A stretch of DNA of 64,000 nt from Bdellovibrionota bacterium (GTDB taxonomy: Bacteria; Bdellovibrionota_C; UBA2361; CALJRW01): positions 96,001 through 160,000 of the forward strand of contig JBGSMD010000016.1 in assembly GCA_041740355.1 (NCBI GenBank), given 5' to 3'. Below, in pieces: positions 29,288 through 42,517 of the stretch. The position numbers and the translations under genes were made by a program. Position 1 is the stretch's first letter. The number at the start of each line of letters is the position of its first letter. The notes under the pieces are model-generated. The model was not told the DNA's origin. It ran no database searches and worked only from the letters and a program-made list of their open reading frames with translations.

Positions 29288-30094
29288 ATGAATGACATAT
29301 TAAAATCTTCGGATCAACACCTATTAAGTAAACCTCTCTACCTTCTTAAGAACAAACAAAAATATATACCAGCCTTAAATAAAAATGTAGAAAAACTAAC
29401 TGCTTATCAATTTTTGAGTTCTCTTCGAGAATTTTCGGCAATCCCCTCACAAGAACTCCAAACACTCGCTGACTCTTGTCGCTTTGCAACATATACAGCT
29501 AATCAATTTATAAGATCAGAATGTGACGAAGAAAGTCTTTATGGATTTATTGTTGTCTCTGGTCGATTAGCACTATTTAAAAATTCCAATAGTGGCAAGG
29601 AATTGATTGTTGATATTTTACAAGTAGGTGATATTTTTGGACTACTATTAATGCTTGCGGCTGAAAGATTGCCGGAACAACTTTCAGTGCGCTCATTTCA
29701 GAAAGCAAAGTTATTGTTAGTTCCGCTCAAATGCTTTACTCGTCTGATCGAAGCTCATCCAATCCTCTTTAAGGAGTTTGTTGCTCACCTTTTAATTTCT
29801 TTACAATCTTCTTACAATTTATCCAGGGGACTAGCTCATGACAAAGTTAATGTTAGAATTGCCACAGTATTATTTAGCATGTCACTGAAAATTGCCAATT
29901 TAGGAATACCTAATAATTTATTATCATTTAATTTGACCAGAAAACAACTTGCAAACTTAACTGGAGCTACAACTGAAACTGCGATTAGAGTTACAAGAAT
30001 GATGCAAAATGATGGGCTAATAGATATTAGTTGCCCAGGAGTAATTAAGGTTGTAAATCCTCAAGCACTTTTGAAAATTGTTGAAGATTTATAA
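29288..30094 (+). CDS. Crp/Fnr-family transcriptional regulator
   Basis: cNMP-binding barrel (SGKELIVDILQVGDIFG) and HTH LTRKQLANLTGATTETAIRV. Confidence 0.9.
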   Translation: MNDILKSSDQHLLSKPLYLLKNKQKYIPALNKNVEKLTAYQFLSSLREFSAIPSQELQTLADSCRFATYTANQFIRSECDEESLYGFIVVSGRLALFKNSNSGKELIVDILQVGDIFGLLLMLAAERLPEQLSVRSFQKAKLLLVPLKCFTRLIEAHPILFKEFVAHLLISLQSSYNLSRGLAHDKVNVRIATVLFSMSLKIANLGIPNNLLSFNLTRKQLANLTGATTETAIRVTRMMQNDGLIDISCPGVIKVVNPQALLKIVEDL

Positions 30095-30301
30095 TTCTTT
30101 TAACATTAAAAATTCTAACAGTATGTATTAAAAGTTCTATTGGAGTTAGCTTGTAGTTATTTTATCCCAGCAGAGTTTTAATAAAATCCTATTTATTAAA
30201 ATAAAACTGTTGAATTGTTTTATTAATACCTAATTAGTATTTTAGGGAAAATCCCTTCTAAACCTATTCCAGTTGGACCAGACGGCCTGGCAAATTGAAT
30301 C

Positions 30302-30331
30302 CTTGTCCGCCGTAGCTTCAGCGAAGGTGGA
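30302..30331. repeat. Family-B REP-like GC-rich palindrome
   Basis: cttgtccgccgtagcttcagcgaaggtgga; related copies at 54808 and 59641. Confidence 0.75.
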
Positions 30332-30409
30332 ATCTACAGCAAAAGAGTAAGCGCAGATAAATACGTTTTACAAGCCGTCTGTATTACTAAATAGGTAACT
30401 GTTCTGTGA

Positions 30410-30643
30410 CTATCTGCGACGGTCTTCTTCGCGACCAATTAGGCCTCCACCAACAGCGCCAGCAGCACCACCGATCACAGTTCCTCCAACCCCTGGGGAT
30501 ATTACATTACCAACCACAGCCCCAGTTCCACCACCAATTACGGCACCTTTTTCTTTGTTATTTAACTTTCTCCAAGTTGTACAGCCTGAGACCATTGCAA
30601 GAATTGTCAGACAGCATATAAATACAATAATTTTTCTTTTCAT
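30410..30643 (-). CDS. Glycine-zipper lipoprotein (OsmB/YMGG-like)
   Basis: Lipobox VSGC; GAVIGGGTGAVVG...GGAAGAVGGGLIG. Confidence 0.85.
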   Translation of the reverse strand: MKRKIIVFICCLTILAMVSGCTTWRKLNNKEKGAVIGGGTGAVVGNVISPGVGGTVIGGAAGAVGGGLIGREEDRRR

Positions 30644-30920
30644 AATAAATACCCTTAATATTAGATAAGTAAAAAATTCTACTTAATGCTAAGGTTTGAC
30701 AGTATGATCTGGATCAGGCAAATAATGTCAGCGCTAGAATGGATAACGATTCCCCTATGTTGCATCTTTCGTTAAAGTTATGTCGGGCAAGTCGTCGAGA
30801 TAAAAAACTTCATAATATCAGAATAAATTTTTTACAAATACCGTCTGGGCCACTTCTTGATCGGTTTTAAAATATAAAGATTCTGACTGGTATAAAATTT
30901 ATTATTTATAGTATTATAAA

Positions 30921-31008
30921 ACTATGACAAAAAGTAATTTCCGATATTAAAATGTTATTTTTGTTATAAAATATGATTATATTACCCTTCCATGGGGATA
31001 TTAGCCCC
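30921..31008. repeat. Degenerate family-A repeat
   Basis: actatgacaaaaagtaatttccgatattaaaa...tttttgttata...ggggata; resembles the reverse complement of 58324-58420. Confidence 0.5.
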
Positions 31009-31086
31009 CAACAATTAATTTCCTAAGAAAATTACTTGTTGAACTTACTATTAGTCAATTTTAACTCTAATAATAATAAAGTATTT

Positions 31087-31689
31087 ATGAATAAAGTACT
31101 CCTTGGATTAATAATCCTTATATTAACTTCTTGTTCTTCCAAAGACGCAAATCTTCTAACCGATCACAATCCCCCAAAAGGCTTTAAAAAAATTGCCGGT
31201 GATGTTTACTTACAATCAGAGACTCCAGAGGTCTTAAAAAACTATACAGCATTCCATATCAATCCCATTATAATTTATAGTAACGATAAGGGCAGACTTG
31301 TTGTTCCGACTCAAATTGAAGTCGATCGTTTAGCTAAATTGTTTCGTGACAAATTAATTCGAGAGTTGGGTTCTAGCTATACTGGATTTGACCACCCGGC
31401 ACCTCATGTCGCAATTATTGATATTAAGATAGTTGACCTTTGGACCTCACGCGCAATTGAAGCACTGCGGCCCGGATTAATTTTCCCGAATAATCTAAGT
31501 GGTGGTGCCACTATTGAAGCAACTTTTTTTGATTCTAAAAGTCGTGAAATAATTGCGACAGTCTGGGATTCTCGTCCCGGCGATAGGACTGGATTCTTTA
31601 GTGGTCTTACTAAATGGAAATCAACAGAAGCCGCCTTTGATGAATGGACCCAGCTATTAAAAAAGAGCATTAAGCCAAGCCATTACTAA
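31087..31689 (+). CDS. DUF3313-like lipoprotein
   Basis: Lipobox LTSC; GGATIEATFFDSKS...W...AFDEW. ATG 31087 preferred. Confidence 0.7.
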   Translation: MNKVLLGLIILILTSCSSKDANLLTDHNPPKGFKKIAGDVYLQSETPEVLKNYTAFHINPIIIYSNDKGRLVVPTQIEVDRLAKLFRDKLIRELGSSYTGFDHPAPHVAIIDIKIVDLWTSRAIEALRPGLIFPNNLSGGATIEATFFDSKSREIIATVWDSRPGDRTGFFSGLTKWKSTEAAFDEWTQLLKKSIKPSHY

Positions 31690-31874
31690 TAAAATCATAT
31701 TTCAAATAGGTCTTGCTATCAGTGAATGATTCAATCATCGTAAATATGAAAGCGAGACTAAAAAATATCTATGACATTATTTACTGCCTGCTTCGCTAAG
31801 AATAAATTTGAATTATATAAAAATACATTTCCAGTTAATGTTTTGCCATCCGAAGAAGCTTCAAAAACTAAGTG

Positions 31875-32523
31875 CTAACCAGCAAAAAGATCCGAAGTTA
31901 AAATAGTTTCAAAGGAAAGTGCACCTGCTTCTGTAATAACTAATTTAACAGCTCCTGCTATTGGATCATCTCTCTCAAGGATCACTGAAAAAGTTGTTTT
32001 ATGGATATTTAATGGCAAAACAATTTGATCGGTCAAAGCAGTCGAAACTAAACCAGATGTAAAGACAAGAGTAAAAACGAGTCGTCCATTTGTTGGATTG
32101 ATCACATTCCGCATCTTCATTTCACCATCACCAAAAGGAATATTATCAGGCCGAATCTTAATAACATAAGTACCAAAATATTCACCATCAAGCAGATCCC
32201 ATACTGGACTTACCAAAGTAGATTTGGCACAAGCAATTCCATATGATTTTAATTTTTTTATAATCAGCTAAAGTTGTTTGGAACTTAGCAAGTAAAACTT
32301 TATATCTAGGAGTTCTTTTCCCTTCTTTTAGTCCAGAAATTTTAGATTTAGCTTGTTCTATTTTACTATTCATATTTAACTTGAACTTTGCTTAGCGAAC
32401 AACCTTAGCTCGAGGACTCAAAATCTACAGATCATTACAGTCATAGTTTTTAGCAATCGAAATTGCTGGTATTTCAGCGGATACTTGAATAGATAAAAAG
32501 TATCTTGATAATATTATTTTCAT
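31875..32523 (-). pseudogene. Disrupted exported protein gene
   Basis: Track ORFs 32188-32373 and 31875-32216 join if one base is removed from the T7 run at 32253-32259. The upstream frame continues through two in-frame stops towards an ATG at 32523 with a signal-peptide-like start. Confidence 0.5.
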
Positions 32524-32705
32524 ATTTAACTCCAAACTCTTTATCTGCAATTATCAAATCAAGTTAAAATTTAAAACTTTCTACGAGGACATGGCTTACG
32601 TTAATTAGTCAGATTATTAAATGCTTTATTAGCTAACCCTATTAATTACAATATAATATGATCATTTGCTTAAGAAAATATTTTTGGTAAAACTCTAATA
32701 TAAAT

Positions 32706-32888
32706 ATGGAGAATAAAATATCAGAAGGTCCTACAACAATACTTACAATTAGCATATCAAAAGAGGGAGCAGAAAAGCTACAAGAACCAGGCTCTTTGGA
32801 AAAGCTTAATTTAATACTAGCTGAAGCAAATCTGCCTCCTGTTATATCCATTCGATCTGCAGAAAAAGCGGCAACCGATTCTAATTAA
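32706..32888 (+). CDS. Small hypothetical protein
   Basis: 60-aa ATG ORF with protein-like composition; convergent with the RT operon. Confidence 0.4.
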   Translation: MENKISEGPTTILTISISKEGAEKLQEPGSLEKLNLILAEANLPPVISIRSAEKAATDSN

Positions 32889-32945
32889 ATCAGTTTTCTA
32901 TCTATCAAGTTAACATTTTTACACTAAAAAAGTGAAACGCTCATG

Positions 32946-35288
32946 TTATCCCTGTTTTAATCCAATATAACGACGAAATCTTGGAACTTCACAGCGAAAC
33001 AATTCGCTACTATTAAGCGCAAGTTTTTTGCTTTCATAAATTGCGTTTGGATTTTGTTGAAATTGCAATAATCTCTTGGAAATTAATTGATAATCTGTGA
33101 AAGAAACATTTAATAATTTATTTGGGCATTGAAAATAAGCTTCTACTGTCCAATATTCAATGGCAAACGCTAAGGAATACAAAAAACTTAGCTGCCTAGC
33201 GTTCATTCTTTTTAGATGAGCGACTATTATTATATCCCCCATTCTAGAAAATACTACAAAGCGAGAGTTGTTTGGCACAAACAAAGTGTTCCGTCTAGTA
33301 TCAATTAATTTTTGATATACATCCCGAGCTTTTGATAGTTTTAACTTACCAATAGTTGCCAAATTCCCCTTTTTATCCAAGTAGATAAAATCTGTCTGCT
33401 GCTTAAATTTCGTTTCAGTTTTAATTTTAATAAGATTAACCAATTCTTCGATACTGAGTTTGTGTAATTTGGCATGCTTTAACTCTTGATAGCAGCGCTC
33501 TTCATGGAGCATTAAAAAAATACTCTCCATTAGTCTAATAGACTTTTTATCTGCACCGATCAGTCGAAATTGGCCTTTTACTTTTAGCAAGTCAACCTGT
33601 AGATCCTTTTGAAAATCTATTTTCATAACGAAACGAATTAAACCGGAAAGCTGAAATTGTAAATTTGCTATACCTAAATCACTATTTGCTGGAAACGTGA
33701 TCAACAATACTCCCGGAAAGATTTCAGTTTGCCAGGTTAAGGAATCACTAATCCGCTGAATGGATCTGCCAATGTAATTTGAATAGTAACTTTTAGTGTA
33801 TGATTTATCTAAAAAAATTATGGCAAATTCAAGTGGCTGATTGCTTGCGAGCGAGGCACGCGTGGCGGCTAACCAAGCTTTTAAACTAAGGGATTTAGTT
33901 CTTTGGGAAACTTGTTGCCGATAGATATTTAGCAATAAGCTCCGGCTAAAATCAATCCGTAATAGTACAATTAAAGAAGCCCCAATGATAATAACACTAT
34001 CTAATAAAATAATTCCTTGAATATTAGAGTTTGCTATATAGATTAAATAATACTGCAAAGGAATTGTAAAAAGTAAAAAATAAACTAACATAAATCTCTG
34101 GAACTGTATCTCCGTTTTAGTTACTTCAATTATCTTATAGCTTGTTTCAAAAAATGTTTTGGCTACAATAGCAATCAAAACTAAAACGAAGTAATTTAGT
34201 AAAACACTGGAACTATAACCAACCCAATAGGGAAATTTTACATAAAGTAGTGTTAAGATCGACAAGGTCAATCCTAAAAAAATTAATGTGTAAACAATCG
34301 TCCGTTTTGCATATTGATAGGCCTGCTCTAAGTGTCCTTCCTTTAAAGCAAGGTGAATATCCATTGCCAATGACCTAGATACTTGGATGGCAAAGCCAGA
34401 GAGAAAACTAATTGAAAAATATAAGAAAATATATTGTCGCCAATAGTAATTACTATGTAAATATAAGAAGCAACCGAGGCAAAGTAAATAAAGATAGTAG
34501 GCTACTGGTAATGAATAAATCTGGCGAAATACCCTAGATCGCAATAACCCTGTAAGCAAGTATCGTAACTGAATAGGCTTCCGATAGGTATAAAAATTAA
34601 ACCTCAAAGAGTCTAATGCAATTTTGATATGATAATTAATATATAATAAGTTTCCTATTAGATAGCCAAGTATATAACTATACTCCCCCATAAAGCGATA
34701 ACAACTTAGCATTAAAATGATGGGGATAATTCGATAAAAAGTAGAGATTAGAAACTCCTTTTTTAATCGTCTTTGAGTATAGGAAATTGCCCATAAAGCT
34801 AAACTTAAACTCTCTAAAGGCAAGATTATTAAGGTTGTGAAAGCAATCAGCAAAGACGATCGATCCATTTCTAAAAATATTGCTAAAGCAATAATTCCAA
34901 GACTATTTATTAAACCCAGCACTATACTAAAGTTAATAGCCAAGTAATAATAGTCATTGCATTTTTCTTGATTAAATTTCTTTTGAAATTCAACTAACTT
35001 TATCCTAAAAAACTGCATGCCTCCTTTTAGTAAACCTTTCAAACAAAAACTCAAAAAAATAATTATTGCTACTAGGCTAAAGAAGTTAGAGCGAAATAGA
35101 AAATAAATTATTGCCATCTCAAAGATTACAATCAGTTTAAAAACTAATCTCGATAGAAGTGGAAAACGAATTCTATATATTAAATATCTTAAAAAAGTAA
35201 AAAAACTCTGACCTTCCTTCCAACGTCTTAAGCTCTCGAACCTTTGCTTTTCTATTTTTGCTCTTAGGATGAACTTTTGAATTAACAT
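32946..35288 (-). CDS. RT-associated multi-pass membrane protein (MATE/Wzx/MurJ-like N-terminal half plus soluble C-terminal domain)
   Basis: About 12 hydrophobic segments in the first ~450 aa, then a soluble ~330 aa. Its ATG overlaps the RT stop (TAATG at 35286-35290). Confidence 0.75.
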   Translation of the reverse strand: MLIQKFILRAKIEKQRFESLRRWKEGQSFFTFLRYLIYRIRFPLLSRLVFKLIVIFEMAIIYFLFRSNFFSLVAIIIFLSFCLKGLLKGGMQFFRIKLVEFQKKFNQEKCNDYYYLAINFSIVLGLINSLGIIALAIFLEMDRSSLLIAFTTLIILPLESLSLALWAISYTQRRLKKEFLISTFYRIIPIILMLSCYRFMGEYSYILGYLIGNLLYINYHIKIALDSLRFNFYTYRKPIQLRYLLTGLLRSRVFRQIYSLPVAYYLYLLCLGCFLYLHSNYYWRQYIFLYFSISFLSGFAIQVSRSLAMDIHLALKEGHLEQAYQYAKRTIVYTLIFLGLTLSILTLLYVKFPYWVGYSSSVLLNYFVLVLIAIVAKTFFETSYKIIEVTKTEIQFQRFMLVYFLLFTIPLQYYLIYIANSNIQGIILLDSVIIIGASLIVLLRIDFSRSLLLNIYRQQVSQRTKSLSLKAWLAATRASLASNQPLEFAIIFLDKSYTKSYYSNYIGRSIQRISDSLTWQTEIFPGVLLITFPANSDLGIANLQFQLSGLIRFVMKIDFQKDLQVDLLKVKGQFRLIGADKKSIRLMESIFLMLHEERCYQELKHAKLHKLSIEELVNLIKIKTETKFKQQTDFIYLDKKGNLATIGKLKLSKARDVYQKLIDTRRNTLFVPNNSRFVVFSRMGDIIIVAHLKRMNARQLSFLYSLAFAIEYWTVEAYFQCPNKLLNVSFTDYQLISKRLLQFQQNPNAIYESKKLALNSSELFRCEVPRFRRYIGLKQG

Positions 35289-36592
35289 TAATTTAATTGA
35301 TAATCTTTGTTGCGTTTCAATCTATTTCGCATATCTAATACGGAAACTAAACCTAGCTGACGAATCTTTCGATAGGTACAATACTTAAAAACCCGATCAT
35401 GAGAAGTTCCATAGATGAAACGCAAGGAAACTTTTGCCAACCACTTATCAAAAGATTTAAATGAGCTGCGATCATCACAGTGCATGATTAAATCATAAAA
35501 ATAATGATCTCTTCCAAGGTTTGTCAGATAATAATTCAAAGAGTTAATTATCGCTTGTAACAAATTAATCTTTGAGGAACAAAGTTTTTTATTTATGAAA
35601 TATGAATGTCTGGCAATCTCTAATATCTCTTGCTTTATGAAGTTGATCCGTCGATCTGATAAAAATAGTCCCCCCTCGGAGTTAAGCTTAAACCCTAGAT
35701 ATAAAAGTGGTTTATTTTTTATTACGCTACTAAAAACCCCTCTTTCCAATTTCTTTTCATTTAACTTGAGATTCAATTCAGAAAGTTGTTTTTCCAAGAA
35801 AAGACAGACATTGCTCACTACATTCTCTGATTCATGAGCAATTAAAAGATCGTCACCATAGCGACTATAAAAAACTTTGAAGTTATCTCTAATATCTCGA
35901 TCAACATTAACTAAGTAAAAATTTGCAATAAAACATGAGATCGAACAACCAGTTGGAACACTTGCAGATAAAAGAGTAATTTCTGATTGATTGGAAGTTC
36001 TAAATTGCGGACCTACTATCTCATTTAATAATTCCCAAAAATAATTTTCTTGTTTCGGGATTGCTAGTTTAAGCTTCGCAATTAAGATCTGTGGATTAAT
36101 ATGATCAAAATAGCTTTTGATATCACATTTCGCATAATATAAATCAACATCTGATTCCTTAATAAATTGTCGGCAATTCTTAATAGCTGAAATGCTAGAA
36201 AAACCTTTGCGATATGAATATAATGAATCTAAGTAATATTTATCTTGCAAAGCTCCTTGAAGAATATTTGCCAATGTAGCTTCAAAAATCTTATCGATCC
36301 AATTGCTTAGATAAATGGTTCTTTCCTTATTGCTTATTTTAACAATGATTTGCTTCTTAATTTCGGGGAAATATTGCTTTTGTTTGATTGCTTTACAGAT
36401 TTCATCAATAATTAAACCACGATATAATAAGCACCATTTTAAACTTACTCCTTCAGCCAAAGGACTGGAATCCAATTTTTCTTTATCTCCCATGCTTCTT
36501 TGATGAAGCTTAAAAAATACATCCTCATAGTGATCGCGACGAGCTAGTTCTTTTATTATATTTAATTTAGATAGTTTAATTGTTTTTATCAC
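35288..36592 (-). CDS. Stand-alone group II-like reverse transcriptase
   Basis: KERTIYL..WIDKI, YSYRKGFS, KCDIKSYFDHI, VPTGCSISCFIANFYL..VD, YSRYGDDLLI, LKLNEKK and YLGF motifs. Maturase/thumb-like C-terminus (IINSLNYYL...FKSFDKWL). GTG start. Confidence 0.93.
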   Translation of the reverse strand: MIKTIKLSKLNIIKELARRDHYEDVFFKLHQRSMGDKEKLDSSPLAEGVSLKWCLLYRGLIIDEICKAIKQKQYFPEIKKQIIVKISNKERTIYLSNWIDKIFEATLANILQGALQDKYYLDSLYSYRKGFSSISAIKNCRQFIKESDVDLYYAKCDIKSYFDHINPQILIAKLKLAIPKQENYFWELLNEIVGPQFRTSNQSEITLLSASVPTGCSISCFIANFYLVNVDRDIRDNFKVFYSRYGDDLLIAHESENVVSNVCLFLEKQLSELNLKLNEKKLERGVFSSVIKNKPLLYLGFKLNSEGGLFLSDRRINFIKQEILEIARHSYFINKKLCSSKINLLQAIINSLNYYLTNLGRDHYFYDLIMHCDDRSSFKSFDKWLAKVSLRFIYGTSHDRVFKYCTYRKIRQLGLVSVLDMRNRLKRNKDYQLN

Positions 36593-36614
36593 TAAAAGCT
36601 TGTTTGCAAGGAGT

Positions 36615-36830
36615 TAAAGTGGGGTTAGGGGAAATCGAAAGATTGTGTTGGAACAACTAAGTTTTTAAGTTAAGTAGTTAGCGAAGCTAAGTAGTTAGCT
36701 CAAAGAGTGAGTTATTTCAATATAGTCTGGATGTCTTATGAGTTGCAGGCTCCTCCCGTAGCACTTAATTGCAACTCCCGAGACATAAATGGGAAGGTGG
36801 TATTACCACAACACCCTAACCCTATTTCAG
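36615..36830 (-). ncRNA. Candidate RT-associated structured ncRNA
   Basis: Closing inverted repeat gggttaggg (36622-36630)/ccctaaccc (36814-36822). Long hairpin atgtct/agacat plus gagttgca/tgcaactc (36731-36786). Small hairpins gtggtattaccac, aatcgaaagatt, gttggaacaac and ttagcgaagctaa. 12-nt direct repeat. Higher GC than the flanks. Confidence 0.7.
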
Positions 36831-36932
36831 ATTAACAGATTTTACCCTATTAATAAATTATGTTTTTAGATTAAGATGAAGAAAATACTTTAATCAATTA
36901 TGACGATCCTCCGATTTCTACTTTGATTTTTC

Positions 36933-38669
36933 ATGCGCATTATAGCTTTTCTCTTTTTCTTATTTATCCCACTAAGTGCGAGCTGCACAGAGGAGTTCAA
37001 TCTTCAACTATCAGAATTTATTGCTAATGCCACATGTTCCGACCTAGTACCCAAGAGCATCGAAGTTAAATTATCTGCGGGAGGTTTTATTTTTAGCATT
37101 CCAAGTCTTTATGATACCCCAATTATCTCTTCAACTCTGGTCTGTTACCAGCTACTCACATACCTCCATGATTACACAGAAGCATCTCCAGAATCACAAA
37201 TACTAACCTTTGAAGTTAGGGAATCTTCCGGAGAATTCCAATTCCTAGAGAAAAGCGGCCTTATAGATAGTCTTTGTTTAGATGCCGGACTATGTCAAAG
37301 GGGCTTTTTTGATTATTTTCGCTTGAATCAGAATTTGCTCAGTTGCCACGGTGCCAGAACTTTGGCTCTGTCCTTAGAAAGAGCTCTACCTAAGTTCTAT
37401 CGGACCAAGACAAAGATCGTCAAAAAAATGGGTCTTGAAATTCATCCCTTTGTTCCATTTATTCAAAAACTTGAGGAATACTTGAACGATCCTCAAGTTA
37501 AGAATATTTATGCTTCAACAATGAGCCTAGGGGATAAGAGCCTAGTAGAAGTTATTCCAAAACTTAATACTAAATTTTTAAATTTGAGCTTTGATGCCGG
37601 ATTGATGTTAATGAAAAAGCAAGAAAATTTATTTAATCAATTAATCGGTCAATTTTCAAATTTCCAAATAGCCCCAATGACTAGTGGCCAATATTATAAT
37701 AATATTTACCACTTAAAATTTATTACAAGTCCTGAAAATAACAAGTCAGTTGTTTCCTCTATGAATCTTTCTACTCCTGAGAGTACAACTTACATCGACT
37801 TTTTATATTTATTTGATGATTCAGAAATACAGCATGAATTAACTGCGATAACAAAATTAAATAAGCAGCGCTCTTGTCAAACCGAAGAAGATTTAAAGTG
37901 CCTTCTGCGTTTTGCAAACTCAAACTCCAATATTAGTAGTGAGTTTAATTCTTTATTGAAATCTTCCTGTCTAAATCAGGACCCTGTTGAAGATACCAGA
38001 TCAGGCTACTTTGCTTACAATGATGACACTGACTTAGAGCAATATATAATCAAATTTATAAACTCAGCAGAAAAAGAAATTATTCTAATGAGCTATAAAC
38101 TCTCTAATCCAAGCATACTTTCTGCGCTTCGCAAACGTCAAGCTGCTGGACTTAAGGTCTATCTGATTACTGCCTATAAGCCATATTACAATCCAAAGTT
38201 GTTTGATCATTTATATTATGCTGGGAAAGACGATCTTTCGATGATTCCCTATCCACACATGAAATTAATGATTAGCGATCGAGAACAAATGCTCTTTGGT
38301 TCAGGAAATTTTAGCGTCAATGCACTAACTCAATCAGCAGAGATGTTTGGAACTACCACAGATCAAAATGCTATCCAAAAAGCCCTTGCATATGCAGCTA
38401 CATTTGTTCAGGACTTTAACCCCAAACTTTCTAAAAACTTTTACAATCAATCCGTGGAAGATCCATTTTATTCCGTTAATTATTTAAAACAAAATTCATC
38501 GCTTCAAGTTGAATATACAGAGCCTAGCGGAATTAACTGGATGCCATATTACCGAAAGTTTAATCAGCAGGGAAAAGATATTTTAAATCAGTGCAAGATT
38601 AATAATCTTCACTTCGTTTCTAGCCAAAACTTTCAACAATGCTTAGACTTAATTAATAAAAAGTTTTAA
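36933..38669 (+). CDS. Exported phospholipase D-superfamily protein with two HKD-type motifs
   Basis: Signal peptide; HLKFITSP...SSMNLS and HMKLMISD...GSGNFS; INSAEKEI.LMSY. Confidence 0.82.
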   Translation: MRIIAFLFFLFIPLSASCTEEFNLQLSEFIANATCSDLVPKSIEVKLSAGGFIFSIPSLYDTPIISSTLVCYQLLTYLHDYTEASPESQILTFEVRESSGEFQFLEKSGLIDSLCLDAGLCQRGFFDYFRLNQNLLSCHGARTLALSLERALPKFYRTKTKIVKKMGLEIHPFVPFIQKLEEYLNDPQVKNIYASTMSLGDKSLVEVIPKLNTKFLNLSFDAGLMLMKKQENLFNQLIGQFSNFQIAPMTSGQYYNNIYHLKFITSPENNKSVVSSMNLSTPESTTYIDFLYLFDDSEIQHELTAITKLNKQRSCQTEEDLKCLLRFANSNSNISSEFNSLLKSSCLNQDPVEDTRSGYFAYNDDTDLEQYIIKFINSAEKEIILMSYKLSNPSILSALRKRQAAGLKVYLITAYKPYYNPKLFDHLYYAGKDDLSMIPYPHMKLMISDREQMLFGSGNFSVNALTQSAEMFGTTTDQNAIQKALAYAATFVQDFNPKLSKNFYNQSVEDPFYSVNYLKQNSSLQVEYTEPSGINWMPYYRKFNQQGKDILNQCKINNLHFVSSQNFQQCLDLINKKF

Positions 38670-39091
38670 CAAGGAGATCGGGAACTTCTTGGACTTCTAA
38701 TGGGGCAAAGGCCACCTGTCATACTATTCCACCAGTAAGCCTTAGACTTTCCACTACCTTTTAGTGAATAAGCAACAGCAGTATATGAATTGTTATTATT
38801 ATTGGGGTCCGAGCTGACACTCATGTCAACATCCTGACCTAAGGTGAATCCAGGCAAAACATTATTACAATTGCTACTCAAGCAACTTGCATAACCAGAG
38901 ACTCCCTTGCCGACACTATCAGCATAGTAAGTTTCCTGAGCCGAGGCTACCTGTTGTAAAGTTGCGACTGAGGTAGTATCAGAAGCAAGCTTCCGGAATT
39001 CAAACATGTTTTCCATTGCGATAGATGCAATTATCGCCAAAATGGCGATGGTAACTAACAACTCAACTAAGGTAAAACCTCTACAGCTCAT
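38666..39091 (-). CDS. Type IV pilin-like protein
   Basis: GFTLVELLVTIAILAIIASIA prepilin motif; AQETYYAD. Confidence 0.88.
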   Translation of the reverse strand: MSCRGFTLVELLVTIAILAIIASIAMENMFEFRKLASDTTSVATLQQVASAQETYYADSVGKGVSGYASCLSSNCNNVLPGFTLGQDVDMSVSSDPNNNNNSYTAVAYSLKGSGKSKAYWWNSMTGGLCPIRSPRSSRSPC

Positions 39092-39476
39092 ATTACAAAA
39101 TTTAAAAAGATAATTTACTAGATATCTAGGTGTAGATACTTAACTGTAAATGTTAAGCACACATAACTCGAACATAATCATCAGATACATTAATTTTTGA
39201 TTTAAATAATTTTTTATTATTTTTCAAAAAAATGATTCCTAACCCTAATACACTCCAATGATCAGTTACAGTTGAGTAGGTTTAATACTAAAGTTGCTAT
39301 ACTTTAGTACTATTATACCAAAACTAACAATATATTATATATAATTAGTGATAATAATATTATTATTAAGAATTGGGTATTATTACAATAATAATAAAAT
39401 TGTGATTATAAAATGATTTCCGCAACAAAGATGCTTTTAATCAATTATTAGAAGTAAGCTATCAATCCTTACTTAC

Positions 39477-40082
39477 TTAAGATTTATAATCTTTAGGCTT
39501 TACCTTTTGGGCAGTATGTTGGACAATTACCTTTCGTACCTCCTCTAAAATTGTAGATGTTGCATTGCGTTTGGTCGATCTAATCCTACCAATTTTTTGA
39601 AATTCCTCCGATCTTTGACTAAGATTCTCATCGATTAAATCGATATGGGATTGAACCTGATCTCGCCAAGATTTTAATTTAGTTTTCGCAGCGGGACAAA
39701 ATTTAATAATACTTGGAGCAGCAACCCCAAAACCATCTTTCTCAACAACAAAGTCAAGAATTTCCTTGGTCTCTTCGAATTTATTTTTGAGAACTAGCTG
39801 ATCACAAACTTTTAATACTTCTGTTAAAATTTCTGCAATTTCACAGAGTTCTTTAAATCCACTGTGCAACAATGTTGAAAAATAATCCCCATTAAATTGC
39901 TCGAGTAACTTTACTACCTCAGTAATTGAATTAACTTCATGGCGCAGCTCCTCTAAATCCTCAGCTATTTGAGGTGGAACAACTAAAGAATCTTCTCCAG
40001 CTTCTCGGTACTTTAAATAGCAATAAGCAGCAATTGACAAGAAAAGTCCAAAGCCACAAAAGAATGCTAAATAAACTAACAT
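39477..40082 (-). CDS. Hypothetical membrane-anchored helical protein
   Basis: N-terminal TM segment; 201 aa. Confidence 0.65.
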   Translation of the reverse strand: MLVYLAFFCGFGLFLSIAAYCYLKYREAGEDSLVVPPQIAEDLEELRHEVNSITEVVKLLEQFNGDYFSTLLHSGFKELCEIAEILTEVLKVCDQLVLKNKFEETKEILDFVVEKDGFGVAAPSIIKFCPAAKTKLKSWRDQVQSHIDLIDENLSQRSEEFQKIGRIRSTKRNATSTILEEVRKVIVQHTAQKVKPKDYKS

Positions 40083-40302
40083 CTTAAATATCGTTTAAAG
40101 TATTGCATCAGGGATAATAAAGAATTTAATCCTTAAGTGCGAAGCAAGTTGAAATTATTCCATTTCGCTAATTACCTAACTAGCTCCGACTATTTTTATA
40201 ATAGCATATCAGGCCTGAATCTACGACTATATATATTCTTAAATTTATCCTGAATATTAGCCAAGTTTTGGGTTCTAAGTTCGATTAAATTATAAGGCTC
40301 GC

Positions 40303-40698
40303 TTAAGTTTTAGCTCTTATAAAAGAGACCTGAAAGGTTTCCTTAGTAACAGCCTGATAATATGTCCCAACGAGTCGATCCTGAGCGGCATCATAGAGCA
40401 GATTATAATTAGAACCTGGATAATTAACATCTCGCAGTTCAATCATTATCTTAATATTTTCACCGTCTTGAGTTACATTTGCTTCTGATACATTAATTGA
40501 TTGTGGATTAAAATATAAAGCTTTCAAATTTCCATTTGTAGCAATATCTTCAATTGCGATAAGATAATTGCTATCAGTGCGTTTCCAGCGACCTTTAATT
40601 CTCTCGAGCAAAGAAGCATTATCAAGAGCAAATAAATCGCAACTAAGAGTTAACAATATAAATAATAAAGTAATTAGTAATTTTAAAGATTTATTCAT
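40303..40698 (-). CDS. Conserved hypothetical exported protein
   Basis: Signal peptide; GRWKR.D..Y.I...YFNP.SINVS...ELRDVNYPGS.Y.L.YD...DRLVG.YYQA. Confidence 0.7.
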   Translation of the reverse strand: MNKSLKLLITLLFILLTLSCDLFALDNASLLERIKGRWKRTDSNYLIAIEDIATNGNLKALYFNPQSINVSEANVTQDGENIKIMIELRDVNYPGSNYNLLYDAAQDRLVGTYYQAVTKETFQVSFIRAKT

Positions 40699-40762
40699 AA
40701 TTAGCTCCAAGTTTACGATCTATAAAAATATTAACTTTAAAATATCTAATATTTTCTTATTC

Positions 40763-40986
40763 TTAATATGGACTAGTAAAAGTTTCAATTACTACCTGAT
40801 GAATTTTTCTAGTATATTTTTATTTTTAGTATAACTTAGAATTACAGGAGTATTTTCGTCCGAACTAAGATGCGCGAATTTATCAATACCAAATGTATTG
40901 CCATTGGCATTTTAGATTCTTCCTTCAGCTACATTATTGTCATCAATATAAATTTTTGCAATACCACTAAGCAATCCTCCCCCATT
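40763..40986 (-). pseudogene. Relic of an arylsulfatase C-terminal domain
   Basis: Own translation: NGGGLLSGIAKIYIDDNNVAEGRI*NANGNTFGIDKFAHLSSDENTPVILSY, then a frameshift to KYTRKIHQVVIETF. Matches the GGGxGxGG..LYVDG..VAEGRI...F..DE...G.DE.TPV..Y..FTGKI..V.I pattern. Confidence 0.6.
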
Positions 40987-41038
40987 CCTAGATAGCTAAA
41001 AGATATATTAAGTGAAAAACATTTTTATTTTACTCAAG

Positions 41039-42517
41039 CTATCGATAATCAACTTTGTAAGGACATATCTTAAACCCAGGATTTTTTTTTAGTGCAAAAG
41101 TTATACGACGCATTAACTTCGGGTCCTGAAGACTCTCTTCTTTGTATGGTCCAATAATTAAGCGTTTTCTATCAGAACCTAAGTTCTGCTTCAACAACAT
41201 ATCTTCAATAAATCTTTCTCGATCTATTACAGGATCTGGCGTATGCCAGATTAAAAATACTAAGCTTTGCTCAGGGCATGTTTTAATCATGTTGTGCTTA
41301 GCATTCGACATCATCTGGACACGAAACTGGTAGCGTTCTAAAGTCTGGGGAATTGAGGTGTATAAATATACTAGCTGGCAAGTGATTAATATTAGAGCAA
41401 GAACTTTTTGCCATTTTCCAGATATCCCTAGCCAGCTAGTTAGTTGTTGAAGAACCGGCCAACCAAGCGAACAGATAAGCAAAAAAGATCCCCAAAAAGC
41501 AAACCAATAGCGGGAGCCGTATTGTGGCCAACCATCTTTAGAGTGAAAGGTATAGATAAAAACAATTAAAAAAATATGTAAGAATAAAACATAAAGATAT
41601 TTCGTTCGAAACACCTTATACAGTCCCAACATAAACAACAGAAAAGCTGGAAGTCCAATCAATAAAAGGAATTGATCGTAAAATAAGAAATAAAAGAAAC
41701 GATTAAAATTAGAAAAGAACTGTCGAAAGACATCTTGCCATTTTCCCAATATATGAAGCTCCGTATTTATATGTGATCCATATGTAGTTAGAGAAAACTT
41801 TCCCAACTGATAACTATTGTAAGAAATCACTAGGCCTATCCCAATTATTGCTAGAGTCGTAGTTATCAGTATTGGCACCAAACTTTTACGGACTCCATGA
41901 TAATGAACCAATCCAATCAAAATTGGAAATAAAAAGCAGGCAGTTTCAACAGGTCGTGTCAGGAAACCAAGGGCTGCGAATATTCCAATATAAAAAAGAT
42001 TCTTCTTTTGGCTTTGTTTGAGATATTCATAGAATGCCCAAATACCGGCAGTCGATATAAATAAAATTAATGGTTGAGCAAATAGAGATGCTGCGTATCC
42101 AAAGCTATAAGGTACAAAAGCGCCAAGTAATATTATTATTGCGGCATTTTTTTCATTAGTTAAATCCTTTGATAGGCGATATACAAAAAACAAGCTGAGA
42201 CACATTAGTATTGGATTTAAAACGAATGCTAATCCCAGCTTAATCGCACCAGCTAAAAGCAATGAAAATCCAGGGAAATATTTGGAGAATAAAATACCTC
42301 TTTCATAAACAATGTGTGGTTCAATAAATATATAGCTAAAGTTATTTGCTTTTATATAAAAGGACCCTTCTGAAAAAATCTTGGCCTGTATCCAGTAGCC
42401 AAATTCATCAAAACTATTGGGACGCATTTCAAAGATACAGCAGGAGATAAAAATGTAAAAAACTCCAGCGGCAATGATTACCAAGTATGTCATCTTGTCA
42501 AAAGTAGCTGGTTTCAT
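41039..42517 (-). CDS. GT-C (ArnT/PMT-like) membrane glycosyltransferase
   Basis: DEFGYWIQAKIFSEG, KYFPG, FLTRP and YGSRYW motifs; many TMs. Confidence 0.75.
   Translation of the reverse strand: MKPATFDKMTYLVIIAAGVFYIFISCCIFEMRPNSFDEFGYWIQAKIFSEGSFYIKANNFSYIFIEPHIVYERGILFSKYFPGFSLLLAGAIKLGLAFVLNPILMCLSLFFVYRLSKDLTNEKNAAIIILLGAFVPYSFGYAASLFAQPLILFISTAGIWAFYEYLKQSQKKNLFYIGIFAALGFLTRPVETACFLFPILIGLVHYHGVRKSLVPILITTTLAIIGIGLVISYNSYQLGKFSLTTYGSHINTELHILGKWQDVFRQFFSNFNRFFYFLFYDQFLLLIGLPAFLLFMLGLYKVFRTKYLYVLFLHIFLIVFIYTFHSKDGWPQYGSRYWFAFWGSFLLICSLGWPVLQQLTSWLGISGKWQKVLALILITCQLVYLYTSIPQTLERYQFRVQMMSNAKHNMIKTCPEQSLVFLIWHTPDPVIDRERFIEDMLLKQNLGSDRKRLIIGPYKEESLQDPKLMRRITFALKKNPGFKICPYKVDYR

What the first reader, a model, noticed from the sequence alone, without database searches (positions are those of the whole stretch)
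36615..36830. Architecture of the RT-upstream ncRNA: closing stem, long hairpin and GAA mini-hairpins on the would-be cDNA strand
Seen: a 9-bp perfect inverted repeat (36622-36630 / 36814-36822) closes the region, as retron a1/a2 arms do. Inside are gtggtattaccac (36797-36809) and a 14-bp interrupted hairpin (36731-36786). The RT-proximal part has several short hairpins whose plus-strand loops are GAAA, GAA and GAA (aatc-gaaa-gatt, gttg-gaa-caac, ttagc-gaa-gctaa). Established: d(GCGAAGC) is an exceptionally stable DNA mini-hairpin. Inference: since the RNA would be minus strand, the plus strand is the cDNA, so about 36631-36710 may be the template and the 5' hairpins the RT-binding scaffold.
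Basis: partly seen in the sequence, partly recalled or inferred. Interest (0 to 1): 0.8.

Follow-up and report, generated by a model that had tools for sequence, protein, structure and literature searches.

The report
Pseudoknotted RNA partner of a reverse transcriptase
The structured stretch in front of this bacterial reverse transcriptase gene is very probably the enzyme's own non-coding RNA, with a conserved closing stem, hairpin and pseudoknot, and it belongs to a rare, undescribed three-gene system.

Summary
Taken alone they are weak. A 9-bp inverted repeat is not rare here. The RT-sense strand folds only slightly better than shuffles (z -1.86).

Relatives make the element real. The RT (35288-36592, minus) belongs to a rare operon: a class-2 UG-like RT, a MATE-fold membrane protein and a PLD-like protein. 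I examined 11 such loci. Eight carry one shared RNA architecture: closing stem P1, 2-5 nt, hairpin P2, then a pyrimidine strand that pairs with a purine strand in the apical loop of the next hairpin. That last pairing makes an H-type pseudoknot.

- A covariance model built from 5 loci finds a held-out locus.
- In 124 genomes it matches only its 5 training loci, all RT loci.
- It misses the two most distant loci.

The RNA strand is the minus strand, by homology. The 5' part is a conserved scaffold and the RT-proximal part is variable, probably the template. The cDNA product type is unresolved.

The RT is not retron-type. The GAA mini-hairpins are not conserved. This is a new variant of the DRT-type RT-plus-ncRNA kind.

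The parts
36622..36822 (-). Whole ncRNA element from P1 5' arm to P1 3' arm (201 nt); the transcript probably starts some nt upstream of 36822
   Evidence: Descriptor hit C16:132622-132822 minus; covariance model R1 gives 73.2 bits at 36733-36823 minus
36814..36822 (-). P1 5' arm (GGGUUAGGG), closing stem
   Evidence: P1 is paired in 64 of 64 cells across 8 loci, with changes on both sides at 8 of 8 positions (partly by construction of the descriptor)
36797..36809 (-). P2 hairpin (GUGGU-AAU-ACCAC), 4 nt after P1
36791..36796 (-). S1 5' strand (CUUCCC) of the predicted pseudoknot, directly after P2
   Evidence: S1 is paired in 46 of 48 cells across 8 loci, against 24-35 of 48 when the 3' strand is slid
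36731..36786 (-). S2 interrupted hairpin; its apical loop holds the S1 3' strand
   Evidence: (I1); S2 helix covariation
36752..36757 (-). S1 3' strand (GGGAGG) in the apical loop of S2, flanked by the S2a helix GCU (36760-36762) / AGC (36749-36751)
36648..36720 (-). P4 long hairpin, lineage-specific in length, containing the 17-nt-period direct repeat (36667-36683 / 36684-36700) and the GCGAAGC apex in plus sense
   Evidence: (D2)
36631..36647 (-). J4/1, single-stranded joint between P4 and the P1 3' arm (CACAAUCUUUCGAUUUC C); candidate short template
   Evidence: Motif comparison by reading the eight elements. The A-B-A' pattern is not above chance
36622..36630 (-). P1 3' arm (CCCUAACCC); ends 30 nt before the RT start codon
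36839..36844 (-). TAAAAT, a -10-like hexamer 17-22 nt upstream of P1; possible ncRNA promoter
   Evidence: The consensus scan did not report it as a full promoter
35288..36592 (-). Reverse transcriptase, 434 aa, class-2 UG/Abi-like, YGDD motif present, invariant C-terminal G-L-x-S (S417)
32946..35288 (-). Partner 1: 780-aa polytopic membrane protein; N-terminal ~470 aa have a MATE/MOP transporter fold
36933..38669 (+). Partner 2: PLD-like (HKD) protein with a hydrophobic N-terminus. Here it is divergent from the RT; in the other loci it is the third gene of the operon

Best explanation
The element at 36622-36822 on the minus strand is the cognate non-coding RNA of the adjacent class-2 UG-like reverse transcriptase. 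The RT belongs to a rare three-gene system: RT, MATE-fold membrane protein and PLD-like protein.

Shown by computation:
- The RNA has a conserved 5' scaffold. It consists of closing stem P1, a 2-5 nt joint, hairpin P2, and an H-type pseudoknot in which the six pyrimidines right after P2 pair with six purines in the apical loop of hairpin S2.
- It has a variable 3' domain, which in the window is the long hairpin P4 plus the single-stranded joint J4/1.

Inferred from DRT2, DRT9, DRT10 and UG27:
- The RT binds the scaffold and copies part of the variable 3' domain (within 36631-36730) into single-stranded DNA of plus-strand sense.
- Priming is possibly from a protein residue. The invariant C-terminal Ser417 is a candidate.
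- The DNA product then controls the two envelope partners.

My preferred product (about 0.35): short repeats templated by J4/1, with P4 acting as the template-boundary hairpin, as in DRT10 and telomerase. This is the only part of the variable domain present in all eight loci. The main alternative (about 0.25) is a discrete hairpin-forming cDNA of P4, as in UG27.
For: System:
- RT, a 700-820 aa membrane protein and a PLD-like protein are encoded together in 10 loci. An eleventh locus is a partial contig.

RNA architecture:
- A descriptor derived from 4 loci (W, L021, L040, C11) also hits 4 loci not used to build it: L042, L043, C63 and G001. Each locus has exactly one hit, always in one orientation.
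- In the whole 3.27-Mb genome, both strands, the descriptor gives 29 hits. Three of them are the genome's three RT loci.
- A feature not in the descriptor holds up. A 3-5 bp helix flanks the S1 3' strand in 8 of 8 loci, with a 2-nt spacer in 7 of 8. At other positions in the same elements a helix of at least 3 bp occurs at 19-34% of positions. With the 2-nt spacer 22 of 24 cells pair, against 8-13 of 24 with other spacers.
- Covariance model R1, built from 5 loci, finds the held-out L021 element full-length at the predicted place (24 bits, E 6e-4). There is no other match up to E 10 in 147 kb.
- In 124 genomes of the phylum, R1 matches only its 5 training loci, all RT loci.
- On alignment A8, 81.8% of cells pair against 70.4 +/- 2.6 in shuffles (0 of 500 reach it). 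Ten of 15 pairs change on both sides against 4.5 +/- 1.5 in shuffles. Slid controls pair at 33-59%.

Close pair C63 and G001:
- The elements are 80.6% identical over 160 nt (E 4e-37). Their flanks diverge and the 3' third is variable.

Strand:
- S2 of C63 has 4 G.U pairs out of 9.
- The differences between C63 and G001 inside helices are G.U to A-U and G.U to G-C, so pairing is kept only on this strand.
- U-runs follow the P1 3' arm in L021, C63 and L042 (3' flanks).
- The element sits 9-40 nt upstream of the RT on the RT strand in 5 of 8 loci.

RT:
- YGDD and a C-terminal GLxS are invariant in 10 of 10 sequences.

Precedents, read as passages or sections:
- DRT10 (PMC12632851).
- DRT2 pseudoknotted ncRNA (PMC12039810).
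- UG27 (bioRxiv 10.64898/2026.09.22.753630).
Against: - No transcript evidence: no RNA run holds the region.
- In the window the plus strand folds much better.
- Folding energies do not separate the strands in the other loci.
- Model R2 with filters off does not detect the L042 and L043 elements. Those two rest on the descriptor alone.
- No element was found in 3 of 11 loci: L039, L041 and L020.
- P1, P2 and S1 complementarity is partly by construction of the descriptor.
- The pseudoknot is predicted, not probed. In some loci the S1 5' strand has a competing nearer partner (C63).
- A-B-A' repeats in J4/1 are not above chance in 7 of 8 loci. Shuffle fractions are 0.23-1.0, with only L021 at 0.015.
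- C11 carries its element 286 nt from the RT. C63 and G001 carry theirs downstream of the operon on the opposite strand.
Confidence: 0.62

Rival explanations
1. The RNA and system are as above, but the product is a discrete short single-stranded DNA. The RT copies the variable hairpin P4 (about 36648-36720, perhaps with J4/1) once. [quoted passage not shown] It is.
For: - 36631-36730 folds far better in cDNA sense than in RNA sense. With RNA parameters: -34.9 (z -7.5) against -14.1 (z -2.6). With DNA parameters: -10.5 (z -2.7) against -6.0 (z -1.0).
- Six G.U pairs form in cDNA sense against two in RNA sense, and the RNA sense has only 9% G.
- The long P4 of L021 leans the same way (-70.6 against -62.9).
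- The cDNA apex would read GCGAAGC. I recall this as a very stable DNA mini-hairpin; no call tested it.
- UG27 precedent: 50-100 nt ssDNA hairpins copied from the central hairpin (passages).
Against: - Six of 8 family members have only 20-38 nt between S2 and the P1 3' arm, with a small hairpin or none. A hairpin-copy mechanism cannot be common to the family.
- The UG27 boundary motifs (AUC-N7-UANAG and UUYA) are not at the P4 flanks in the window, by reading.
Confidence: 0.25
2. The functional transcript is on the plus strand. It would be an antisense RNA to the RT leader, or a 5' leader of the divergent PLD gene (36933-38669), regulating one of the two genes.
For: - The plus strand folds at -85.4 kcal/mol, z -5.72, against -58, z -1.86 for the minus strand.
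- The plus-strand fold has 12 G.U pairs against 2.
- The intergenic region lies between divergent genes.
Against: - The asymmetry is confined to the lineage-specific half. In the conserved half the two strands fold alike (-30.5 against -31.6).
- In 9 other loci the PLD gene is the last gene of the operon, not next to the RT start. The same architecture still sits upstream of the RT in L021, L040, L042 and L043.
- In C63 and G001, S2 has 3-4 G.U pairs and one-sided changes that keep pairing only on the strand homologous to the window's minus strand.
- The only promoter-like plus-strand site (36832-36861) lies downstream of the element (not above the shuffle expectation).
Confidence: 0.08
3. There is no dedicated RNA. 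The stems are chance or ordinary regulatory structure, such as a leader or attenuator, in an AT-rich divergent promoter region. The resemblance among loci would then be an artefact of a permissive descriptor.
For: - The RT-sense z-score is only -1.86.
- Inverted repeats of 8-10 bp are common in the region.
- The descriptor has 26 background hits in the genome.
- Covariance models miss L042 and L043.
Against: - Expected descriptor hits per kb and strand are about 0.004 (26 background hits in 6.5 Mb). Yet 8 of 11 RT loci carry one.
- The S2a helix was not part of the descriptor and is present in 8 of 8 loci.
- A covariance model recovers a held-out locus. In 124 genomes it matches only its 5 training loci, all RT loci.
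- The C63 and G001 elements are conserved at 80.6% while their flanks diverge.
- In those two genomes the element lies downstream of the operon on the other strand. That placement does not fit a leader.
Confidence: 0.05

Closest known systems
DRT10 (UG17) ncRNA-RT-SLATT system (PMC12632851; bioRxiv 10.64898/2026.04.29.721553 and 10.64898/2026.10.08.757509)
   Same: - Class-2 UG RT of about 430-470 aa without extra domains.
- A structured ncRNA of 130-200 nt encoded beside the operon, probably with its own promoter.
- A membrane-protein partner.
[quoted passage not shown]
- A conserved C-terminal Ser or Tyr region in the RT.
   Different: - The RT scores only 89 bits on the UG17 model.
- The partner is a MATE-fold 780-aa protein plus a PLD-like protein, not SLATT.
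- The RNA has a closing stem and a predicted pseudoknot. The DRT10 RNA is described as five stem-loops and two long loops (passages).
- A-B-A' is not demonstrable here.
DRT2 (UG2) pseudoknotted ncRNA (PMC12039810)
   Same: - The ncRNA lies upstream of a lone class-2 RT.
- The scaffold includes a pseudoknot.
- The template is the least conserved part.
   Different: - In DRT2 the pseudoknot lies 3' of a 120-nt template that encodes an endless ORF.
- Here the pseudoknot is 5' of the variable domain.
- All six frames of 36631-36730 contain stop codons, by my reading of the sequences.
UG27 ncRNA units (bioRxiv 10.64898/2026.09.22.753630)
   Same: - Class-2 UG RT with two accessory proteins.
- ncRNA units of 135-167 nt, with a pseudoknot and a hairpin of variable length.
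- A precedent for a cDNA that is a short hairpin.
   Different: - UG27 has arrays of units, is phage-borne, and has different accessory proteins.
- Its boundary motifs (AUC-N7-UANAG, UUYA) are not seen here.
- The RT scores 71 bits on the UG27 model.
Telomerase RNA template/pseudoknot core
   Same: The concept only: a core-enclosing helix, a pseudoknot, a boundary hairpin and a short single-stranded candidate template in one closed domain.
   Different: - The order of elements differs.
- No sequence relation was tested.
- No evidence of repeat addition.
- The GGGTTAGGG of P1 is inside a helix, not in a template.
Retron msr-msd
   Same: A closing stem formed by the two ends (like a1/a2), a structured RNA upstream of the RT, and internal hairpins.
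   Different: - The RT is not retron-type.
- No Rfam match at E up to 1 in 30000-42000.
- The effectors differ.
UG26 RT group (Mestre et al. 2022, PMC9226505)
   Same: It is the best-scoring PADLOC model for the window's RT (112 bits) and for 3 of the 8 relatives scanned.
   Different: - Scores are low and close to those of DRT9/UG28, UG17 and a generic RT model.
- UG26 is reported with a Vsr/YcjD-like endonuclease in 9 of 35 members. No ncRNA for UG26 appears in the passages I saw.

Membership tests
UG26 reverse transcriptases (PADLOC PDLC03764) | A clear best match to the UG26 profile | tested here: inconclusive
   112 bits for the window's RT. Among the 8 relatives, UG26 is best in 3, a generic RT model in 4 and Drt9 in 1. 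All scores are 84-124 bits.
UG26 reverse transcriptases | Reported neighbour: Vsr/YcjD-like endonuclease (9 of 35 members) | tested here: not met
   The neighbours are a MATE-fold membrane protein and a PLD-like protein.
DRT10 / UG17 | SLATT-domain partner | tested here: not met
   No Pfam or PADLOC family for the 780-aa partner. Its fold is MATE/MOP.
DRT10 / UG17 | A-B-A' template pattern in a loop downstream of a stem-loop | tested here: inconclusive
   Patterns exist in J4/1 (UUUC-GA-UUUC in the window) but are not above shuffles, except in L021.
DRT10 / UG17 | Protein-primed tandem-repeat cDNA | not testable with these tools
   Needs cDNA sequencing. There is only an invariant C-terminal Ser417.
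DRT2 / UG2 | Template whose concatemer gives an endless ORF and a junction promoter | tested here: not met
   Stop codons occur in all three frames of both senses of 36631-36730 (reading of the sequences). NCBIfam Drt2 scores 63.5 bits against a cut-off of 390.
UG27 ncRNA | AUC-N7-UANAG and UUYA motifs flanking the central hairpin; arrays of units | tested here: not met
   The motifs are not at the P4 flanks (reading). There is a single unit per locus.
Retron | Retron-type RT | tested here: not met
   PADLOC retron RT models score about 57 bits against 112 for UG26. NCBIfam retron_St85 scores 56.5 bits against a cut-off of 235.
Retron | msDNA branched from a conserved G next to a1 | not testable with these tools
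   Needs msDNA analysis.
Any Rfam family | Covariance-model match | tested here: not met
   0 matches at E up to 1 in 30000-42000.
Group II intron | Intron RT/maturase and intron RNA domains | tested here: not met
   TIGR04416 scores 102.9 bits against a cut-off of 300. No Rfam intron match.
The ncRNA family defined here (P1-P2-pseudoknot) | P1, 2-5 nt joint, P2, S1 5' strand directly after P2, S1 3' strand in the S2 apical loop flanked by S2a | tested here: met
   The window's element meets all of these and scores 73.2 bits on R1. It was part of the model's training set.

The most novel reading that the evidence does not exclude
This may be a bacterial RT ribonucleoprotein whose RNA has a telomerase-like core in one closed domain: an enclosing helix, an H-type pseudoknot, a boundary hairpin and a short template. 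Its output would act at the cell envelope rather than on a cytoplasmic toxin. The RT-made single-stranded DNA would be handed to, or would gate, a MATE/MOP-type exporter and an extracytoplasmic PLD-family phosphodiesterase. In that case reverse-transcribed DNA is exported or processed outside the cytoplasm. Relatives of the membrane protein are fused to PLD or to HlyD-type periplasmic adaptors.
Probability: 0.1. Interest if true: 0.9.

Novelty: new variant of a known kind. Interest (0 to 1): 0.62.

Why it matters
Class-2 UG reverse transcriptases (DRT2, DRT9, DRT10, UG27) have each turned out to make a different DNA product from their own RNA. One group has been proposed as the root of telomerase. 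This locus adds a family that I did not find in print. The searches were 'UG26'/'UG17', RT + ncRNA + pseudoknot + defense-associated, RT + PLD + defense + ncRNA + transmembrane, and DRT11-13/UG27. Supplementary files of these papers were closed, so a listing there cannot be excluded.

Three things make the family of interest:
- The RNA is compact and can be modelled: a closing helix plus a pseudoknot.
- Three diverged copies sit in one 3.3-Mb genome.
- The partners, a MATE-fold transporter-like protein and a PLD-like protein with a hydrophobic N-terminus (a likely signal sequence), point to the envelope rather than to a cytoplasmic toxin.

The family is rare. Only 27 representatives of the membrane partner reach E 1e-30 among 1.84 billion proteins.

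The finding yields a defined RNA (about 200 nt), clear mutational targets (P1, P2, S1, S2a, J4/1, Ser417) and two testable product models.

Tried and rejected
Searches that found nothing:
- Close relatives of the RT: none in genome contigs with the single protein, none in viral contigs.
- Only two distant proteins in the word-indexed search.
- No plasmid match to the membrane partner.

Expression:
- No RNA holder is listed for the region.
- Laying the three DNA runs gave no variants.

Primary-sequence similarity:
- There is none among the upstream regions of paralogues.
- MAFFT alignment of the whole elements was unusable. MAFFT and model alignments put some rows one column out of register. 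I therefore counted S1 with my own rule-based script rather than with the count of structure pairs.

Strand by thermodynamics:
- Ambiguous in five other loci and in L021.
- The sigma-70 consensus scan found no minus-strand promoter, and its hits were not above the shuffle expectation.

Covariance model R2:
- With filters off it did not detect the L042 and L043 elements. Its best hits there were noise, at E of 1.9 or more.

Missing elements:
- No element was found in L039, L041 or L020, even with a relaxed descriptor, which only produced noise.

Template ideas:
- A-B-A' in J4/1 is not above chance.
- The 17-nt direct repeat in P4 (D2) is best read as a by-product of two near-palindromic modules in one hairpin, not as a template repeat. 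This is inference.
- A DRT2-like endless ORF was rejected because of stop codons in all frames.

Other:
- A 12-bp perfect inverted repeat upstream of the G001 RT looked like P1. Its 3' arm lies inside an SspB-like coding region, and the real G001 element is elsewhere.
- The Atlas look-up for the membrane partner gave only weak leads (0.76). The predicted fold later agreed with them.
- No complex prediction was attempted.

Full report
OBSERVATION

- the perfect 9-bp inverted repeat 36622-36630 / 36814-36822;
- the small palindrome 36797-36809;
- the interrupted hairpin 36731-36786;
- three GAA(A)-looped mini-hairpins;
- a minus-strand TAAAAT at 36844-36839.

One search lists the two larger inverted repeats (I4, I1) and a 17-nt-period direct repeat at 36667-36700 (D2).

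Alone these features are not compelling. Similar 8-10 bp inverted repeats occur nearby. The RT-sense strand folds at z -1.86, with 7 of 200 shuffles as good. The opposite strand folds at z -5.72. Rfam has no match.

WHAT THE GENES ARE

The 434-aa protein is a reverse transcriptase (Pfam RVT_1). Its best PADLOC models are class-2 UG groups: UG26 at 112 bits, UG17/DRT10 at 89, UG27 at 71. Retron RT models score about 57.

The downstream 780-aa protein has no Pfam, PADLOC or NCBIfam family. The divergent 578-aa protein has a PLD-like domain (DrmC/NucT-like).

Searching the window's own genome, its order and its phylum (124 genomes) found few relatives of the RT:
- two paralogues in the same genome (C11, C63);
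- one in a congener (G001);
- six in other genomes.
One further locus comes from a marine metagenome and one from a partial contig.

In all ten loci with enough sequence, the RT is followed by a 700-820 aa membrane protein. In nine of them a PLD-like protein follows on the same strand. Only in the window is the PLD gene inverted upstream of the RT.

The membrane protein:
- It is predicted with a confident N-terminal helical bundle (mean pLDDT 68.3, and 80-93 over most of residues 20-450).
- That bundle matches MATE/MOP transporters (Foldseek E 3.7e-6, target TM 0.55-0.64).
- A profile search of 1.84 billion representatives gives only 27 proteins at E 1e-30.
- Of the 14 hits I scanned with Pfam, one is fused to a PLD domain and three to HlyD-type adaptors.

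The seven PLD-like proteins I read all begin with a hydrophobic segment.

THE RNA

The upstream regions share no primary sequence. Four of them (window, L021, L040, C11) showed the same layout when folded:
- a closing stem P1;
- a 3-5 nt joint;
- a small hairpin P2;
- directly after P2, six pyrimidines complementary to six purines 31-53 nt downstream.

I wrote this layout as a descriptor. It then hit loci I had not used:
- L042 and L043, just upstream of their RTs;
- the C63 paralogue and its G001 orthologue, where the element lies immediately downstream of the PLD gene on the opposite strand.

Each locus has exactly one hit, always in one orientation. In the whole genome, both strands, there are 29 hits, three of them at the three RT loci. 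That is 26 background hits in 6.5 Mb.

Folding with the two six-mers held unpaired showed something the descriptor did not ask for. The purine strand always lies in the apical loop of the next hairpin (S2). A 3-5 bp helix closes immediately around it, with a 2-nt spacer in 7 of 8 loci. The result is an H-type pseudoknot.

Counts over the eight elements:

| Helix | Cells paired | Control |
|---|---|---|
| P1 | 64/64 | none |
| P2 | 24/24 | none |
| S1 | 46/48 | 24-35/48 when the 3' strand is slid |
| S2a | 22/24 | 8-13/24 with other spacers |

Every pair position has changes on both sides. P1, P2 and S1 are partly guaranteed by the descriptor. S2a is not.

INDEPENDENT CHECKS

- A covariance model of the 5' core, built from five loci, found the held-out L021 element full-length at the predicted place. 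The score was 24 bits, E 6e-4, with no other match up to E 10 in 147 kb.
- On the resulting alignment, 81.8% of cells pair against 70.4 +/- 2.6 in shuffles. Ten of 15 pairs change on both sides against 4.5 +/- 1.5. Slid controls pair at 33-59%.
- Across the 124 genomes of the phylum the model hits only its five training loci, all RT loci.
- Against this, a second model that included L021 did not detect the L042 and L043 elements even with filters off.
- No element was found in L039, L041 or L020.

THE CLOSE PAIR C63 AND G001

The C63 and G001 elements are 80.6% identical over 160 nt. Their flanks diverge. The first two thirds of the element are nearly invariant and the last third is variable.

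STRAND

Folding energy does not decide the strand. In the window it favours the plus strand. That excess is confined to the RT-proximal half, 36631-36730:
- plus strand -34.9, z -7.5;
- minus strand -14.1, z -2.6.
The conserved half folds alike on both strands.

The strand is set by other evidence:
- In C63 and G001, S2 has three to four G.U pairs. The species differences are G.U to A-U and G.U to G-C, so the helix exists on one strand only.
- U-runs follow the P1 3' arm in L021, C63 and L042 (flanks).
- In five loci the element ends 9-40 nt before the RT start on the RT strand.

By homology the window's RNA is therefore on the minus strand.

MECHANISM

Known class-2 UG RTs bind such RNAs and copy a small part of them:
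- DRT10 makes protein-primed tandem repeats from an A-B-A' loop behind a stem-loop.
- DRT2 copies a 120-nt template next to a pseudoknot.
- UG27 copies a central hairpin into a 50-100 nt ssDNA.

Here the conserved 5' part (P1, P2, pseudoknot) is the likely RT-binding scaffold. The variable part between S2 and the P1 3' arm is the likely template.

That variable part is 20-38 nt in six loci, 100 nt in the window and 205 nt in L021. The only piece common to all eight is the single-stranded joint before the P1 3' arm. By my reading it carries a recurring (U)UCAAAUU(U)C-like motif and usually follows a hairpin.

I therefore favour a short-template, repeat-addition mode, with P4 as the boundary hairpin. 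The A-B-A' patterns are not statistically supported, however.

The window's own anomaly points instead to a discrete hairpin cDNA, as in UG27. P4 is long and G-poor and folds much better in cDNA sense, with a GCGAAGC apex. I cannot decide between the two models.

A DRT2-like endless ORF is excluded, because all frames of 36631-36730 contain stops. The invariant C-terminal GLxS of the RT (10 of 10) is a candidate priming site, by analogy only.

VERDICT

The retron analogy is wrong, and the mini-hairpins have no support from relatives.

This is a new variant of the DRT-type RT-plus-ncRNA kind. It has a predicted pseudoknot and unusual envelope-directed partners. Nothing is known about its expression or product.

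Noticed in passing
G000 contigs C16 (window 32946-38669), C11 (L016:2204-7000), C63 (L017:2688-7001, L045:1123-1252): One 3.27-Mb genome carries three diverged copies of the RT / MATE-fold / PLD-like system. RT identity between copies is about 31%. Each copy has its own diverged RNA element.
   Followed up: partly
L045:1123-1252 (minus) and L018:92-226 (plus): In the C63 and G001 systems the RNA element lies directly downstream of the PLD gene on the opposite strand. In G001 it overlaps the last ~20 nt of the PLD gene (207-1952, minus). This suggests the RNA is a separate transcription unit.
   Followed up: partly
window 32946-35288 (minus); proteins P0033, P0036, P0059, P0095, P0104: The 780-aa partner has a MATE/MOP transporter fold. 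Distant relatives are fused to a PLD domain (P0033) or to HlyD-type membrane-fusion domains (P0036, P0059, P0095). One matches Pfam MatE (P0104).
   Followed up: partly
window 36933-38669 (plus) and its relatives: The seven PLD-like proteins I read all begin with a hydrophobic segment that looks like a signal peptide or anchor. The window's protein has one H-x-K-x4-D motif (reading). This would be an extracytoplasmic PLD-family enzyme in an RT system.
   Followed up: no
window 36631-36730: The RT-proximal half of the element has only 9% G in RNA sense. It folds much better in the complementary (cDNA) sense. This is unexplained.
   Followed up: partly
window 36622-36630 / 36814-36822; L021:2646-2655: The P1 arm reads GGGTTAGGG, which contains the vertebrate telomere repeat TTAGGG. 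The L021 arm reads TAGGTTATGG. It lies inside a helix, not in a template, so it is probably coincidence.
   Followed up: no
L018:5847-6092 (minus): A perfect 12-bp inverted repeat lies upstream of the G001 RT. It spans the start of an SspB-like ORF (Pfam SspB, E 5e-4) inserted between the gyrA-side intergenic region and the RT. It resembles P1 in sequence, but its 3' arm is coding.
   Followed up: partly
window 35288-36592 (minus), residues 414-417: G-L-x-S near the RT C-terminus is invariant in 10 of 10 family members. It is a possible protein-priming serine, by analogy with DRT10.
   Followed up: no
L016:2339-2623: In the C11 paralogue, 286 nt of further non-coding sequence separate the RNA element from the RT start. 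This stretch includes an 11-bp inverted repeat. Its function is unknown.
   Followed up: no
window 38666-39091 (minus): A 141-aa ORF with a prokaryotic N-terminal methylation motif (type IV pilin-like) ends inside the end of the PLD gene, in convergent orientation.
   Followed up: no
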